Shown: one piece after another, positions 4,745 through 38,624 of the stretch
Layout: each line of letters starts with the position of its first letter
Numbering within the stretch: position 1 is the stretch's first letter
Assembly (NCBI RefSeq): GCF_006345805.1
Contig: NW_021835258.1
Coordinates: 1 to 41,818, forward strand
Source: Octopus sinensis
Lineage: Eukaryota
Direction: 5' to 3'
Length of the DNA: 41,818 nt
Position numbers and translations under genes: made by a program
The notes under the pieces: generated by a model
What the model was told of the DNA's origin: nothing
Databases searched by the model: none
The model's input: only the letters and a program-made list of their open reading frames with translations

Positions 4745-4946
4745 TGTAGGTCCCGGTTGATTCGGGGTTAACCACAGTAAATAAGGTACTCAATACATAG
4801 TAGAGTAAAATAATTTATCATATAGAAGGAGCTTCTACAGGACTAGAACTGTTTCATTCAAGAGAAATCTTCAGGAAGCTTCCTGAAGATTTCTCTTGAA
4901 TGAAACAGTTCTAGTCCTGTAGAAGCTCCTTCTATATAATAAATTA
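4745..4946. mobile_element. Fold-back element with hammerhead motifs, probably a Penelope-like inverted pLTR remnant
   Basis: 68-bp arms (4811-4878 and 4879-4946) with one mismatch and no spacer; unique left tail about 4745-4810; (TA)n on both sides. Confidence 0.75.
4873..4930 (+). ncRNA. Type-I hammerhead ribozyme motif (mirror copy on minus strand about 4827-4884)
   Basis: Stem I AGCTTC(4877-4882)/GAAGCT(4922-4927); core CTGAAGA 4883-4889; short stem II TTC-tctt-GAA with a U-U first pair; GAA at 4902; stem III ACAG/CTGT; GUA cleavage triplet 4919-4921. Confidence 0.75.
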
Positions 4947-5262
4947 ATATATATATATATATATATATATATATATATATATATATATATATATATATAT
5001 ATATAGATATATAATACATATATATATATACATATATATATATACATATATATACATATATATATACATATACATACACATATATAGATATATTGATAGA
5101 TAGATAGATAAATAGTATATACATATATATATATATTATATATATATATATATATATATGTATATATATATAGAGAAGAGGGATAGATAGATACAAAGAA
5201 AGATAGATAGGTAGATAGATAGATAGATACGTACATACATACATATATATATACATACATAT
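4947..5262. repeat. (TA)n/(GATA)n/(TACA)n microsatellite
   Basis: Direct reading. Confidence 0.95.
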
Positions 5263-5971
5263 GCTGTATTATTAAAAAAAACTTACGTGTAAATTTTCAT
5301 GTATATGCTTAATTGTGTGCGTATAATATGTAAGTGAGTATACACGCACGCACGCACAGGCACACACACTGACACATACTCATTCCCAAAGAAACAAACT
5401 GTGAAAACTGGTCTTCCGTCGGTTTCGACGATAAAAGTTTCAGTTGATCCAATCAACGGAACAGCCTGCTCATGAAATTCACGTGCAAGTGACTGGACAT
5501 TTCACGGACACTCGTTCCCTTCATGTATTTCCCACGAAGCTTACGCGTGTCCAGCGGGAATCGATCTGATGTCCTTACGATAGTGAACAAACCATTAAGG
5601 CACGTGGTGCCTTCATTCGCTCTCTCTCTCTCTCAGACACAAACACACACATACTCATGCAAACGCACACACAATACGTGTGTGTGTGTGTGTTTGCGTG
5701 TATGTGTGCATTCCAATGCATTATTTGCAAAAGGTATAAGGCACGTGATAAGGCGCGCAATTATTGGAATTCATTCGTAGTCATAAAAAATAAGTGCGCG
5801 CACACACACACACAGACACACATGTACACACACAGACACACACGCACACACACATGCAGGTAAATATTTGATCACACATTCGCACTTATATTTTCTCTGT
5901 CTTCCTCTCACACACACATACATACGTGTGTGCGTGCCTCTGTGTGTGTGTGTGTGTCTGTGTACGTTTGT

Positions 5972-6230
5972 AAGAGAGAGAGAGGGAGTGTGAGAGAAAG
6001 TAAGAGAGAGAAAGTGAGAGAGAGAGTGAGAGACAGAGAGAGAGAGAGAGAGAGAAAGTGTGAATGAGATAGAGAGAGAGAGAGAGAGAGAGAAAGTGAG
6101 AGAGAGAGTGAGAGAGAGAGAGACAGAGAGAGAAAGTGTGAGTGATATAGAGTGAGATAGAGAGAGAGAGAGAGAGAGAGAGAGAGAAAGAAAGAAAGTG
6201 AGAGAGGGAGATAGAAAGAGAGAGAGAAAG
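5972..6230. repeat. (GA)n microsatellite, imperfect
   Basis: Direct reading; source of the LSLS ORFs. Confidence 0.95.
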
Positions 6231-6560
6231 GGCACGGAAAAGTGTGTCTTCGAAAGAGAAAGTGAAAGTAAATGAATTTCAGGATCAATAACACACACGC
6301 AAAAAAAAAACAAAAAGAAAACAAACAAAAAAACAACAACTCAATAATGAAGAATTATAGGAGAAGCTGTCCGAAAAATCATTAAAATTTCAATAAGTGT
6401 CCATTTACTTTGTTTTTCTTTTGCGAGGAAACTAAGTGCTGTAGAATCTTGGCTTTTGTTGTTCTCACAATGCACAGAATAATCAAGAAGACATTGGCGA
6501 GAGGAATCACAAGAAAAGTAGTTTCAACTATTTATTAAATTCCAAAGAGAAAATTTTTTA

Positions 6561-7345
6561 ATCATCATCATCACCATCATCATCATCATCATCGTCATCA
6601 TCATCATCATCACCATCATCACCACCATCATCATCATCATCATCATCATCATCATCATCATCACCATCATCATCGTCATCGTCATCGCCATTCTCATTGT
6701 CATTGTTATTATTATTATTATTTTCATTATTATTATTATTGTTGTTGTAGTTGTTGTTGTTATTATTATTATTGTTGTTGTTGTTGTAGTTGTTATTATT
6801 ATTATTGTTGTTGTTGTTGTAGTTATTCTTCTTATTATTATTACCACTATTATTGTTAGTAGTAGTAATAGGAGAACAATTATCGTCATCATCAACATCT
6901 TTATCATCATCATCATCATTATATTATTATTATTATTATTATTATTATTATTTTTTATTATCATCATTATTATTATTATTATTATTATTATGATATTATT
7001 ATTATGATTTTATTATTATTATTATTAATTGTTGTTGTTGTTATTATTATGTTGTGTTGTTATTATTATTATTATTATGTTGTTTGTTGTTTTGTAGTTA
7101 TTCTTCTTATTATTATTACCACTATTATTGTTGATTAGTAGTAATAGGAGAACAATTATCGTCATCATCAACATCTTTATCATCATCATCATCATTATTA
7201 TTATTATTATTATTATTATATTTTATATTTTAATATATCATTATTATTATTATTATTATTATTATGATTATATTATTATGATTATTATTATTATTATTAT
7301 ATTATATATTATTATTATTACTATTGTTGTTGTTGTTGTTGTTAC
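6561..7345. repeat. (CAT)n/(TTA)n/(TTG)n compound trinucleotide array
   Basis: Direct reading. Confidence 0.95.
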
Positions 7346-7512
7346 TTTATATTTATTATTTATTTTTATTTTACGAACGAAAGTTCGGCTCTGAACAAAT
7401 ATAAATACAGAACACTTCTTTTTAAAGATCTCATTCACCGCTCCATTGTTGTTAATGTGATTTGTAATGATAATTTAAATTGCTTTAAAGCTATGTCGAT
7501 GGTGTGATTGCA

Positions 7513-7908
7513 TTATATATATAGGTATATATTATATATATATATATATATATATATATATATATATATATATATATATATATATATATATATATATATA
7601 TATAATATATATGCATATATAAGTACATATACATATATAATATATATGAGTAGTATATATATATATATATTCATATATACGTACATATATATGTATATAT
7701 ATATATAATATAATTCATATATGCGTACAAATATATATATAATATGGTATATATATATACATATATATAATATATATGAGTATATATATTACATATATAT
7801 ATATATACACATATATATATACATATATATATGTATATTTACATATGTATATATATATCATATATATTATATAATATATATATGTATATATATATCTGTA
7901 TATATATA
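7513..7908. repeat. (TA)n microsatellite, imperfect
   Basis: Direct reading. Confidence 0.95.
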
Positions 7909-8227
7909 GTAGAAAAAAGTAGAAAAGGAGAACAAAGTGCAACAACAACAACAACAACAACAACAACGGCGGATAGAGTAACGAACCGTCTTAAAACATC
8001 ATCTTTTGTTCACGGTGGCAATCATTAATTCGCGTCTTTCATTTTAATATCTGCTATTTATTTACTCATGTGTAGGTTACTAATTAAGTAATGTACTTAG
8101 GAATAAAGACAACAATGATAACAGGCTTGAGGGTAAAAGCTTCATTGAACAAGCGACAATAAATCTGCAAAACCGAACACTTCACTAGGTCAGTTGTGAT
8201 TTTCTCCTGACGAAAATCAATCATTTT

Positions 8228-36677: not shown

Positions 36678-36913
36678 TCATCATCATCATCGTTTAACGT
36701 CCGCTTTCCATGCTAGCATGGGTTGGACGGTTCAACTGGGGTGTGGGAAGCCCGAAGGCTGCACCAGGCCAAACAGATCTGGCAGTGTTTCTACAGCTGG
36801 ATGCTCTTCCTAACGCCACCACTCCGTGAGTGTAGTGTGTGCTTTTTATGTGCCACCGACACAGGTGCCAGACGAGGCTGGCGAACGGCCACGCCTCGTC
36901 TGGCACCTGTGTC
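36678..36913 (-). mobile_element. Short retroposon with (GAT)n 3' tail and a terminal hairpin at its 5' end
   Basis: Minus strand ends aagcggacgttaaacgatgatgatgatga (RTE-like tail). 21-bp perfect inverted repeat at 36858-36878/36893-36913; TA tracts on both sides. Confidence 0.65.
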
Positions 36914-37043
36914 ATATATAAATATATATATATATATATTGTGTGTGTGTGGTGTGTGTGTGTGTGTTTGTGTGTATTGTGTGTGTGAGTGTGTGTATAC
37001 ATACTCATACATACACACATACATATATGTAAGGCACCAAAAG

Positions 37044-37390
37044 AGAATGACACTCCTTAGACACAACAGTATCCCAGCAATGCCATCACGCTTCAGGACC
37101 AGCTTCTGCAACAGCCTGGGTTTCAAGGGCCCACTGCTTTTTAATAATCTCCCTAAGAATCTGAGGAACTTGCACAAAGTAGATGTAGCAGTTTTTAAAT
37201 CAAAGCTGGACATCTTCCTGTCGAGAGTCCCAGATGAACCTACCTCACGGCAAGAGGTGCAAATGAGAGTAGCTGTATCAAACTCCATTCTTCACCAAGT
37301 GCCACATATTAGAGGAGGTTCTTCGTAATAATAGTGTAGCACAAAACGACGGTGCATCAGCATGGCCGCAGCTCTATGTGAAACAAGCAA
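37044..37390 (+). pseudogene. 3' end of a CR1/L2-group LINE ORF2 plus 3' UTR
   Basis: NSLGFKGPLLFNNLPKNLRNLHKVDVAVFKSKLDIFLSRVPDEP...SNSILHQ matches the WNxLP...FKxxLDxFL C-terminal motif of this LINE group; stop at 37326-37328. Confidence 0.82.
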
Positions 37391-37650
37391 ATATATATGT
37401 ATAATATATATATATTTATCTATATATATATATATATATATATATATATATATATTTAGTAGTTGAATGAATTATCTTAGTATGGATAATTCGGTTTAAC
37501 GATACCTGGTTAGCAATTCACGTCAGAAAACGCGGTTGAATCTACATGCCAAGGGCAGAGATCACATGCTTTCGTGTGGAAATTTGTGTGTTTTTTTAAT
37601 ACAAATAAATGAAGAGTAGAGTTGAACGACGATTTAACAAAATTCCTTTA

Positions 37651-37733
37651 TTCTCGACATTGTTTCGAAGGCTGCATATTCCTAATTTCGAAGGAATAAG
37701 GGGTGCATTATGCCGCCTTCTCATCAGGAAAAA
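37651..37733 (-). ncRNA. Type-I hammerhead ribozyme motif (left arm, intact core)
   Basis: Minus strand: TTTTC CTGATGA GAAGGC...GCCTTC GAAAC AAT GTC GAGAA. Stem I TTTTC/GAGAA has one G-U pair, stem II is extended, and the cleavage triplet is GUC. Confidence 0.82.
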
Positions 37734-37868
37734 CAAGGAACTTATGTCAGCATCATGATGAACAGAAATTTTAGATGACTACTGCCCACACAGAGCCCCA
37801 CGCTAGGGGCTCCGTGTGGGCAGTATCTAAAAGTTTTGTTCATCATGATGCTGACATAAGTTCCTTGT

Positions 37869-37951
37869 TTTTCGTGATGAGAAGGCGGCATAATGCACCC
37901 CTTATTCCTTCGAAATTAGGAATATGCAGCCTTCGAAACACATGTCGAGAA
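37869..37951 (+). ncRNA. Hammerhead motif, right arm, with C3-to-G core mutation (probably inactive)
   Basis: TTTTC GTGATGA GAAGGC...GCCTTC GAAAC ACAT GTC GAGAA; position 37874 is G instead of the conserved C. Confidence 0.7.
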
Positions 37952-38624
37952 TAAAGGAATTTTGTTAAATCGTCGTTCAACTCTATTCTTTCATTTATTT
38001 GTATATATATATATATATATATATATATATATACATATATATGTATATATATATTTCTCTTTTGAAACTGTATTTGAGACTGTATTTGACGTAATGCAGC
38101 ATGCATTTACTATCTTGTGAAAGTCTCATCTCGCTTCGCTCTTGAAACTCCTTTTAATCAGCATCTGTTTGCTGATCTTGAGTAAGTCTCATTCCTTTCT
38201 CTCTTGATACTCTCGCCTTCGGTTTTCTACAATCCTCCTTGCTTTATATTGTTTCTGGAGAGATTACATTTCTTCTTTGGTGGCATCTTTCAATATTCTA
38301 AACCAAAAATTATGAACACAGAAAAAATTATACTTTCATCTCTATTTTTGTAAGCAGTTATATGTAATAATAAAGGTGAAACAATATTATACCACTGGAA
38401 AGAAAAAAAGATCTGAAGACGAAAGTGAAATAATAAAAGTGAAAAACTTAATGAAAGAATAAAAATGGAACAATACAACAAATCAAATGTGAAAGAATTA
38501 AAGTTAAGCATTATGATACCACTAAAAAACAATCGGAAGTGTCGTGTGGGGTGGGGCTACAACATTATGTATGGGAAAGGCCCAAAATTTGATCTCCCTA
38601 GAACCCTCCCCAAGTAATGGCAAA

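What the first reader, a model, noticed from the sequence alone, without database searches (positions are those of the whole stretch)
4745..38004. Three unrelated ribozyme-armed palindromes share one architecture: (TA)n, tail, inverted hammerheads, (TA)n
Seen: three fold-back elements (4745-4946, 23119-24227, 37458-38004) with arms of about 68, 495 and 200 bp share no obvious primary sequence. Each has a type-I hammerhead fold in both arms reading outward from the axis. The right arm stops about 25-60 nt past the cleavage site and runs into (TA)n, while the left arm continues into a unique tail of about 65-140 nt. Established: Penelope-like retroelements carry minimal hammerheads in their pseudo-LTRs, often leave 5'-truncated copies with an inverted pLTR plus a 3' tail, and some clades target microsatellites. 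Inference: these are non-coding, (TA)n-targeted PLE derivatives from three families. Three in 42 kb suggests a very abundant class of genomic hairpins able to make self-cleaving or long double-stranded RNA.
Basis: partly seen in the sequence, partly recalled or inferred. Interest (0 to 1): 0.9.

Follow-up and report, generated by a model that had tools for sequence, protein, structure and literature searches.

The report
Twin-primed Penelope-like retrotransposon palindromes
The three DNA hairpins are the cut-short ends of three abundant families of protein-coding jumping genes (Penelope-like retrotransposons) that sit in TA repeats, and the footprints of a few hundred other copies indicate that each hairpin is likely made when both cut DNA strands start copying the same RNA at two fixed points, a step that the papers I found leave unexplained.

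Summary
Confirmed: three fold-backs, a type-I hammerhead motif in all six arms (one with a core mutation), a tail on one side, (TA)n on both. They are not non-coding derivatives. Each is the 5'-truncated end of a coding Penelope-like family (RT plus C-terminal GIY-YIG) of Hydra type. The architecture is known (Arkhipova 2013; Craig 2021). Not found in print: 309 of 316 sampled ends fall at two fixed sites; 97 of 105 inverted pairs join one end of each kind; either arm can be longer; both arms share subfamily variants. In family E1, axes pile up 29 nt below a TATA box (245 exact copies), and an extra cap-like G often sits on both arms. Best reading: both nicked target strands prime reverse transcription of one RNA, and the two cDNAs join head to head. 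Family E3 lacks the Cys linker proposed to direct microsatellite targeting (32 of 32 copies), yet ends in (TA)n and its nuclease is under purifying selection. Read-through RNA would form duplexes rather than self-cleave. The scan noted similar Penelope geometry in other genomes (e1-7768753, e1-7810660), nothing on this DNA.

The parts
4704..4744 (.). (TA)n target, left of E1
4745..4810 (-). E1 tail; 4745 = site 1 (fixed 3' end). In tandem copies the ORF ATG follows 46 nt later
4811..4878 (-). E1 left (site-1) arm = 3' part of the pLTR of family E1
4830..4880 (-). E1 type-I hammerhead motif, left arm (core 4874-4868, U.U at the base of stem II, predicted cut after 4836)
   Evidence: same core variant listed for Hydra PLEs in Craig 2021 File S2
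4877..4880 (.). E1 axis, AGCT; inferred capped transcription start of the family (29 nt below TATAAA in long copies)
4879..4946 (+). E1 right (site-2) arm with hammerhead motif 4877-4927 (predicted cut after 4921); ends at site 2
4947..5005 (.). (TA)n target, right of E1
23090..23118 (.). (TA)n target, left of E2
23119..23236 (-). E2 tail; 23119 = site 1. In tandem copies the ORF ATG follows 55 nt later
23237..23732 (-). E2 left (site-1) arm = 3' UTR/pLTR of family E2
23272..23362 (-). E2 type-I hammerhead motif, left arm (60-nt stem II, predicted cut after 23278)
23729..23736 (.). E2 axis: 8-nt palindromic spacer not present at this place in long copies
23733..24227 (+). E2 right (site-2) arm with hammerhead motif 24102-24192 (predicted cut after 24186); ends at site 2
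   Evidence: site-2/(TA)n junction also in contigs of runs X1, X3, X7
24224..24294 (.). (TA)n target, right of E2
37391..37457 (.). (TA)n target, left of E3
37458..37598 (-). E3 tail; 37458 = site 1. In tandem copies the ORF ATG follows 54 nt later
37599..37792 (-). E3 left (site-1) arm = pLTR of the linker-less family E3
37651..37732 (-). E3 type-I hammerhead motif, left arm (intact core, 54-nt stem II, predicted cut after 37656)
37793..37814 (.). E3 axis, imperfect hairpin, close to the family's 5'-end hot spot (about -354 to -335 from site 1)
37815..38004 (+). E3 right (site-2) arm; hammerhead motif 37869-37951 has C3G at 37874 (predicted inactive)
38002..38054 (.). (TA)n target, right of E3

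Best explanation
Each hairpin is a 5'-truncated insertion, in a (TA)n run, of a coding Hydra-type Penelope-like retrotransposon, and it was likely made by twin priming: the element's GIY-YIG nuclease would nick both strands of the self-complementary (TA)n target, the two free ends would prime reverse transcription of the same RNA (or of RNAs from one source locus) at two fixed internal sites, and the two cDNAs would join 3' end to 3' end. SHOWN: coding parents; two fixed ends (site 1 = tail end, site 2 = 66-147 nt further in); 1+2 pairing; either arm longer; solo site-2 copies; arms share variants; axis hot spots in E1 and E3; an extra G/C on E1 arms at the hot spot. INFERRED: that the sites are RT start sites (by analogy to the in vitro Poseidon result), that the tail is the distance between them, that the E1 hot spot is the capped 5' end of an mRNA starting in the upstream pLTR, and that short ORF-less palindromes arise when priming happens at that upstream pLTR/ORF junction and both RTs run off the RNA end. 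The hammerheads are carried along as part of the pLTR; the template was usually uncleaved, since most arms span the motif.
For: Coding parents. An 890-aa stop-free stretch in L214 holds DKT, RDD, CxCx5C and CxH. Pfam RVT_1 E=5e-4 and GIY-YIG E=1e-3, both below the curated cut-offs. Ends: 309 of 316 distinct ends lie at two sites; 276 of the 293 non-tandem ones abut (TA)n. Pairs: 97 of 105 are site 1 + site 2 (about 5 are assembly or tandem duplicates), and 39 of 40 in a position-ordered E1 sample. E2: site-1 arm longer 19, site-2 arm longer 9, equal 3 of 31. Nuclease-selected copies end at site 2 in 13 of 20 (E2) and 11 of 20 (E3), and 13 of these 24 show no inverted partner. Shared variants between arms: E2 10 against 1.5 shuffled, E3 46 against 9.6, p=0.0005 each; E1 subfamily concordant in 39 of 39, shuffle mean 15.5. 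Hot spots: E1 10 of 30 loci at -142..-130, TATAAA 29 nt upstream; E3 20 of 30 at -362..-335, TATAAC 27-28 nt upstream. The exact AGCT axis occurs at 245 places against 3 for the longer GTTAAC palindrome just upstream. Extra G where the element has T: 12 of 15 solo copies that start at AGCT (24 loci listed). Among 50 listed of 100 spacer-bearing palindromes, 67 of 100 arms carry it and 28 of 50 carry it on both arms, some with spacers of 1-2 nt between (my hand tally; binomial tests). In vitro, the Poseidon PLE protein cuts and extends both strands, starts at two internal sites that bound the tail, and is predicted to be a dimer (PMC11167929).
Against: No biochemical or RNA data. Samples are mostly best-scoring hits, not random draws. 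E2 shows no 5' hot spot. E3 solo copies at the hot spot show no extra G, so the cap signature rests on one family. Equal-arm hairpins are common away from any hot spot in E2 (about 5 of the 30 loci), which independent truncation does not predict. Shared variants could also come from gene conversion between arms, and unequal arms from later deletion at the centre. Many E1 spacers are short copies of nearby element sequence that end in G, so the G on one side may be templated rather than copied from a cap. A TA-like match between template and target at the six sites was not significant (Fisher p=0.25 and 0.16). Full-length E1 copies L253-L255 have upstream pLTRs that run past the proposed start, so read-through transcripts must also be used. 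That a copied cap leaves an extra G is recalled knowledge; searches gave no paper for it.
Confidence: 0.7

Rival explanations
1. Single priming plus fold-back: one cDNA (or an antisense RNA, as Arkhipova 2013 proposed) self-primes at its end and is copied back to site 2, where the nuclease resolves it. Unequal arms come from later deletion at the hairpin centre.
For: Explains shared variants directly, including locus-private variants in both arms (8 in E2, 22 in E3), the strict 1+2 asymmetry, and the equal-arm hairpins in E2. Proposed in PMC3846280; Craig 2021 ascribes the tail to nuclease resolution.
Against: It needs large one-sided deletions for copies such as L223 and L231 (site-1 arm reaching -142 and -145, site-2 arm -3645 and -3158) and for 13 solo site-2 copies. 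Zero-spacer AGCT axes and spacers such as C-x-G leave no room for a loop. An antisense template would not give a sense-strand TATA-linked hot spot with an extra G.
Confidence: 0.2
2. The short palindromes are their own non-autonomous elements (retrozyme- or MITE-like), copied as whole units by the PLE proteins.
For: 245 copies share one exact E1 axis; the window copies hold no ORF remnant; non-autonomous PLE derivatives exist (bioRxiv 2026.07.22.740005; PMC8557442).
Against: The same axis recurs in at least three E1 subfamilies with variable outer ends. Subfamily B has its own upstream sequence, a nuclease-linked copy (L355) and head-to-head spacings from 40 bp to 6.8 kb, with only 9 of 33 pairs at the exact axis. 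E2 axes are scattered. The palindrome has lost the TATA box.
Confidence: 0.07
3. Fold-back sequencing or assembly artefact.
For: The window is a short unplaced contig; no independent read or contig was shown to span this locus's axis.
Against: Arms stop at a family-fixed site and run into (TA)n instead of mirroring the flank; arms differ by 1-6%. The same geometry holds at about 100 sampled loci, mostly on chromosome-scale contigs. Short-read contigs of other runs show (TA)n joined at site 2 (16 contigs in X1, 15 in X3, 1 in X7).
Confidence: 0.02

Closest known systems
Hydra clade of C-terminal EN+ Penelope-like elements (Craig et al. 2021, PMC8557442), including Hydra-1_Obim of Octopus bimaculoides and Penelope-13_HM
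   Same: Single ORF with RT then GIY-YIG; DKT; CxxC and CxH around the conserved E and N; CxCX5C linker (E1, E2); type-I hammerhead in the pLTR, with the U.U core variant in E1; (TA)n insertion; an inverted 5'-truncated copy at the 5' end (noted for Penelope-13_HM).
   Different: The three hammerhead sequences differ from that listed for Hydra-1_Obim, so these are other families. Units are longer (4.9, 4.6 and 3.6 kb against 'generally <3 kb'). E2 and E3 have 54-60-nt stem II regions (listed Hydra loops are 3-10 nt) and Asn-rich inserts. E1 has a 2.4-3.2-kb microsatellite-like 3' UTR. E3 and a sister family lack the CxCX5C linker present in all Hydra rows I could read in Fig. S7. Tails are 66-147 nt, not 30-40.
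Poseidon PLE of Anolis carolinensis in vitro (Frangieh et al. 2024, PMC11167929)
   Same: Two internal RT start sites bounding the tail; both target strands cut and extended; AT-rich target; hammerhead cleavage not needed.
   Different: There the sites lie inside the ORF (one at 111-118 nt); here site 1 lies 46-55 nt before the ATG. That paper reports no difference in start site between strands and, in the parts I read, does not explain inverted copies; here the two sites are almost always paired one of each.
L1 twin priming (recalled; not read here)
   Same: Both nicked target strands prime reverse transcription on one RNA and give an inversion.
   Different: In L1 the two cDNAs copy non-overlapping parts and give an inverted 5' segment; here they copy overlapping sequence from two fixed sites and give a palindrome with a one-sided tail.
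Non-LTR retrozymes (bioRxiv 2026.07.22.740005)
   Same: Type-I hammerhead, relation to PLE pLTRs, no ORF in the short copies.
   Different: Retrozymes are head-to-tail tandem, non-coding families; these are head-to-head truncations of coding families.

Membership tests
EN+ Penelope-like element (C-terminal EN) | One ORF with RT followed by GIY-YIG nuclease | tested here: met
   Longer copies of all three families; stop-free stretches of 890 aa (L214, E2), 652 aa (L270, E1), 645 aa (L161, E3); Pfam hits weak, below curated cut-offs. Not in the window copies themselves.
EN+ Penelope-like element (C-terminal EN) | Partial tandems forming pLTRs | tested here: met
   L255, L254 (E1), L099, L214, L228 (E2), L267, L238 (E3)
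EN+ Penelope-like element (C-terminal EN) | Inverted 5'-truncated copy and a one-sided tail | tested here: met
EN+ Penelope-like element (C-terminal EN) | Type-I hammerhead motif in the pLTR | tested here: met
   Descriptor. In 7 E3-like motifs 87.7% of cells pair and 7 pairs change on both sides (2 of 500 shuffles as high; slid controls 35-50% paired); the structure was drawn from the E3 sequence, so cells paired lean high. Rfam sub-threshold or absent.
Hammerhead ribozyme | Self-cleavage activity | not testable with these tools
   No raw RNA reads were offered. One locus (L256) has two segments that begin within 2 nt of the predicted E1 cut.
Hydra clade | DKG changed to DKT | tested here: met
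   E1 SDKTKN, E2 ADKTGN, E3 SDKTRN
Hydra clade | N-terminal RWK motif | tested here: inconclusive
   E2 RWK; E1 RWR; E3 RWL/RWF
Hydra clade | CxCX5C linker before the nuclease (E1, E2) | tested here: met
   E1 19 of 23, E2 26 of 29 readable copies; misses are frameshifted, mutated or cut
Hydra clade | CxCX5C linker before the nuclease (E3) | tested here: not met
   0 of 32 readable E3 copies (8 rows dropped, motif unreadable; 2 more E3 rows binned as 'other' also lack it) and the sister family in L266. E3 is therefore filed as Hydra-like, not as a full member.
Hydra clade | CxxC and CxH flanking the conserved E and N | tested here: met
   All three
Hydra clade | CCHH motif absent | tested here: inconclusive
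   By eye the nucleases follow the Hydra rows of Craig Fig. S7; no formal alignment to Neptune or Nematis references
Hydra clade | Insertion into (TA)n | tested here: met
   276 of 293 non-tandem ends at the two sites; 40 of 40 on both sides
Hydra clade | Generally short (<3 kb) | tested here: not met
   Units of 4945, 4633 and 3579 nt; a tendency in the source paper, not a strict criterion
Hydra clade | RT phylogeny groups with Hydra | not tested
   The reference proteins were seen in the supplement but were not available as tool inputs; the three parents are 41-46% identical to each other in RT
Non-LTR retrozyme | Head-to-tail tandem non-coding monomers, each with a hammerhead | tested here: not met
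   Head-to-head single pairs; parents are coding
MITE / DNA fold-back transposon | Symmetric terminal inverted repeats with fixed ends, no RT link | tested here: not met
   One-sided tail, variable axis, RT-linked parents

The most novel reading that the evidence does not exclude
Penelope-like elements integrate by a dimer-driven twin-priming reaction: each nicked target strand is extended from its own fixed site on one RNA and the two cDNAs join head to head. Here this is recorded genome-wide by strict site-1/site-2 pairing and by a copied mRNA cap on both arms. In addition, a long-lived Hydra-like lineage keeps (TA)n targeting without the Cys linker thought to confer it.
Probability: 0.55. 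Interest if true: 0.78.

Novelty: new variant of a known kind. Interest (0 to 1): 0.6.

Why it matters
How PLEs, the sister group of telomerase, make their hallmark inverted copies and one-sided tails is stated as open in the papers read (PMC8557442, PMC11167929); a published proposal was self-priming on an antisense template (PMC3846280). These young, high-copy families give countable footprints that favour twin priming and name exact, testable positions: two start sites per family and a capped start for E1. The linker-less E3 lineage is a natural test of the hypothesis that the Cys linker directs microsatellite targeting. At least 8,000 hammerhead-bearing arms from three families, many in inverted pairs, are a large potential source of duplex RNA and DNA hairpins. 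E1 also spreads a 2.4-3.2-kb microsatellite-like UTR that holds TA runs, its own kind of target.

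Tried and rejected
1) First hammerhead descriptor (stem II up to 40 nt) missed the motifs; replaced. 2) Rfam found no hammerhead at threshold. Single-strand folding gave z=-0.03 for E1 and E2, -3.0 and -4.9 for E3; in single arms the computed share of the hammerhead fold is also low (3e-4, 6e-8, 1.5e-3). 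3) Idea that the RT start sites base-pair with the (TA)n primer: not significant (the site-2 offsets used were approximate). 4) My first guess of the Neptune clade (recalled) was dropped once the Hydra motifs matched. 5) Idea that E1 subfamilies B and C exist only as short non-autonomous palindromes, raised (1 and 0 matches): rejected for B, because my pattern had the wrong upstream bases; C stays untested. 6) Hammerhead cleavage as a main source of 5' ends: no peak at the cut sites; one suggestive locus. 7) A protein search with the E3 nuclease found no relative at E<=0.001 among proteins of 354-1129 aa; this is no evidence of absence. 8) Sequencing runs: no RNA holder listed on record; only contigs were available, so expression, cleavage and the locus-specific axis could not be read. 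9) One search had one row on the wrong strand; redone. 10) The automatic arm mapping failed across E1's low-complexity UTR and for several long E3 pairs: arm-length calls cover 18 of 34 E1 and 23 of 32 E3 pairs, so I rely on E2 (31 of 31). 11) E1 gave no diagnostic columns; subfamilies appeared only in the position-ordered sample. 12) Literature: Penelope + twin priming + inverted + GIY-YIG, 0 papers; Penelope-like + twin priming, 3 papers whose titles and abstract starts concern telomerase RNA, human TEs and L1 (listing only); searches gave nothing further on these points. The library lacks most subscription papers (such as Arkhipova 2006), and supplements of Frangieh 2024 and of the bioRxiv preprint were not seen; they may bear on the novelty claim.

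Full report
OBSERVATION. The three fold-backs are in the sequence as described: arms 4811-4946, 23237-24227 and 37599-38004 at 98.5, 99.0 and 93.7% identity, a unique tail on the left, and (TA)n on both sides. They share no DNA similarity. A type-I hammerhead descriptor hits six places in the window, one per arm, each reading outward. The strict-core version gave 0 hits in 100 shuffled windows. The E3 right arm has C3G. Rfam support is weak: 18.4 bits for E2 only. In seven E3-like motifs from related families, stems I and II show changes on both sides in 7 of 25 pairs (2 of 500 shuffles as high). E1's U.U pair at the base of stem II is a common Hydra variant in Craig 2021 File S2.

WHAT THEY ARE. 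The window is a whole unplaced contig of a 2.72-Gb genome. From a SINE-like repeat I recall from octopus genomes the host may be an octopus; this is recalled, not tested. Each element belongs to a high-copy family. Exact 28-30-nt words of the hammerheads occur 6305 (E1), 1119 (E2) and 668 (E3) times (lower bounds). Walking upstream in longer copies leads, in all three families, into an ORF with reverse transcriptase followed by a GIY-YIG nuclease, and to full units of the form inverted pLTR, pLTR, ORF, UTR, pLTR (L255, L099, L214, L267). Window arms are 92-99% identical to those pLTRs. The proteins carry the Hydra-clade marks of Craig 2021 (section 11): DKT, RWK or a variant, CxxC and CxH, and in E1 and E2 the CxCX5C linker. 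The ATG lies 46, 55 and 54 nt beyond the tail end. The window copies are therefore 5'-truncated insertions of coding elements and contain no ORF remnant themselves.

TWO FIXED ENDS. Across the loci held (272, overlapping places merged), 309 of 316 distinct ends fall at two family-specific places: site 1 (tail end) and site 2 (about -68, -118 and -145). Of the 293 that are not tandem junctions, 276 abut (TA)n. Of 105 head-to-head pairs, 97 join site 1 with site 2; 2 are 1+1 (L228 resolves to 1+2 with an inner tandem), 1 is 2+2, and 5 have an off-site end. About 5 pairs are duplicates. A position-ordered sample of 40 E1 palindromes gave 39 of 40. Short-read contigs from other runs also show (TA)n joined at E2 site 2; they did not show this locus's axis. 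In E2 the site-1 arm is longer in 19, the site-2 arm in 9, and equal in 3 of 31 pairs. Copies picked by their nuclease end at site 2 in 13 of 20 (E2) and 11 of 20 (E3), and 13 of those 24 show no inverted partner.

ONE TEMPLATE. The two arms of one insertion share subfamily variants far more often than shuffled pairs: E2 10 against 1.5 (30 pairs), E3 46 against 9.6 (27 pairs), p=0.0005 each; E1 39 of 39 classifiable against 15.5. Discordant cells exist (5 in E2, 15 in E3). Gene conversion could give the same pattern.

AXIS HOT SPOTS. In E1, 10 of 30 first-pass loci stop at -142..-130, and in E3 20 of 30 at -362..-335, against 5 and 6 in the next 150 nt. These points lie 29 and 27-28 nt below TATAAA and TATAAC. 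E2 has no peak. The exact E1 axis at AGCT occurs at 245 places; an axis at the longer palindrome GTTAAC just upstream at 3. Solo E1 copies that start at AGCT after (TA)n carry an extra G, where the element has T, in 12 of 15 cases (24 loci listed, 9 start elsewhere). Among 50 listed of 100 palindromes with a short spacer at this axis, 67 of 100 arms carry that base and 28 of 50 carry it on both arms (hand tally; tests). I read this as reverse transcription of the mRNA cap (recalled knowledge; no paper found). Against: E3 shows no extra G, and many spacers copy nearby element sequence ending in G. The same axis is used in at least three subfamilies; subfamily B has its own upstream sequence, a coding copy and spacings from 40 bp to 6.8 kb, which argues against a self-copying palindrome.

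MECHANISM. Most likely (0.7): the nuclease nicks both strands of (TA)n; the two ends prime RT at site 1 and site 2 on the same RNA or source; each cDNA stops at random or runs off the capped 5' end; the two 3' ends join head to head and are filled in. The tail is the stretch between the sites. Short ORF-less hairpins like E1 and E3 would arise when priming happens at the upstream pLTR of the mRNA. This fits the in vitro Poseidon data: both strands cut and extended, two start sites bounding the tail, predicted dimer, hammerhead not needed (PMC11167929, parts 1-2 of 4 read). The rival, fold-back or antisense self-priming (PMC3846280, passages), explains shared variants and equal arms. It needs large one-sided deletions and fits loop-less junctions poorly. 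A primer-template match at the sites was tested and not supported.

RIBOZYME FUNCTION. In a transcript through a whole palindrome only one hammerhead is sense, and its complement is already present. The computed share of the hammerhead fold is 1e-54 or less. Duplex RNA is the expected product. Short-stem-III hammerheads are reported to need head-to-tail dimers and to cleave slowly (PMC4209133 and PMC6765202, passages). No RNA data bear on expression here.

LINKER LOSS. E3 lacks the CxCX5C linker in 32 of 32 readable copies, against presence in 19 of 23 E1 and 26 of 29 E2 copies. A sister family (one copy, L266) lacks it too and also ends in (TA)n. The linker-less nuclease region has dN/dS 0.08-0.28 in 20 of 21 pairs among E3 copies (0.77 for one close pair), and saturated dS against the sister in 5 of 7, so the lineage likely stayed active on its own. 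Craig 2021 repeats the hypothesis that the linker mediates microsatellite bias and ties Hydra's (TA)n preference to it, while noting that Chlamys target repeats without it (passages). All Hydra rows I could read in Fig. S7 have it. Mobilisation in trans by a linker-bearing family is not excluded.

KNOWN VERSUS NEW. Known: PLE hammerheads, inverted truncated copies, tails, Hydra (TA)n targeting, and one Hydra family in Octopus bimaculoides with a different hammerhead (PMC8557442: passages, section 11, supplement parts 2 and 59 and term hits). pLTR promoters are known: TATA-less in D. virilis Penelope (PMC2377424, abstract only), putative TATA plus Inr in Adineta. Retrozymes as PLE derivatives: bioRxiv 2026.07.22.740005, part 1 of 5. 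PMC2718515 was only term-searched, with no hit. Not found in the searches: strict two-site pairing, a cap signature on both arms, a linker-less Hydra-like lineage. Earlier scan notes hold nothing on this genome or sequence; two notes on other genomes describe similar PLE geometry, seen after my reading was formed and not checked.

VERDICT. Real feature; known class; three families of which one is a variant lacking a defining motif; useful new footprints for an open mechanism. Interest 0.6.

Noticed in passing
L230:6408-9840, L221:7036-7830, L146:9607, L276:127-680: A different hammerhead family in about 490-nt head-to-tail units; in L230 three forward and four reverse copies meet head to head. 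Looks like a non-LTR retrozyme with PLE-type geometry.
   Followed up: no
flanks of fetched loci (L148, L173, L133, L285, L245, L036, L050, L145, L059, L062, L225, L236, L291): About ten further type-I hammerhead families or variants, most with (TA)n 110-350 nt downstream of the core; L036 is itself an inverted pair.
   Followed up: partly
L256 (reverse strand 1169 and 3260): Two E1 segments begin within 2 nt of the predicted hammerhead cut and are joined to nuclease-coding sequence at the same point; a possible trace of in vivo cleavage and template jumping, single locus.
   Followed up: partly
L255:3344-5770, L135, L139, L147: The E1 3' UTR is 2.4-3.2 kb, 54% TA/TG/CA-type runs in L255; the element spreads microsatellite-like DNA. 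In L137 another Hydra-type nuclease ORF lies between two E1 arms, perhaps nested in such a UTR.
   Followed up: partly
L095, L092 (E2); L158, L161 (E3): Long in-frame Asn-rich stretches between RT thumb and nuclease, as described for Adineta Penelopes.
   Followed up: no
L261, L175, L150, L137, L145: Pieces of further Hydra-type ORFs, several with intact CxCX5C linkers, some directly beside E1 or E3 copies.
   Followed up: no
window 22436-22588: MITE-like fold-back with about 50-bp arms and an inner (TA)n; related pieces at 3391-3520 and 41598-41652.
   Followed up: no
window 26311-26487, 20589-21162, 36858-36913: Three more inverted-repeat elements without hammerheads: a 177-bp fold-back, 54-bp terminal repeats 574 bp apart, and a 56-bp hairpin.
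   Followed up: no
window 2607-2854, 9133-9318, 19265-19666, 22269-22438, 27418-27583, 32941-33031, 41355-41536: A dispersed SINE-like repeat family, 68-90% identical between copies.
   Followed up: no
window 24316-24477 and 27177-27338: 162-bp direct repeat, 93% identical, starting just right of E2's flank.
   Followed up: no
window 37050-37325: Stop-free stretch resembling the C-terminal end of a LINE-type protein (recalled), just left of E3.
   Followed up: no
window 14185-14354: 19-bp minisatellite, 9 copies, 94% matches.
   Followed up: no
L054/L055 (G000:C4:17372229-17373871): A whole E3 palindrome repeated three times in tandem at about 550-bp spacing, with (TA)n between.
   Followed up: no
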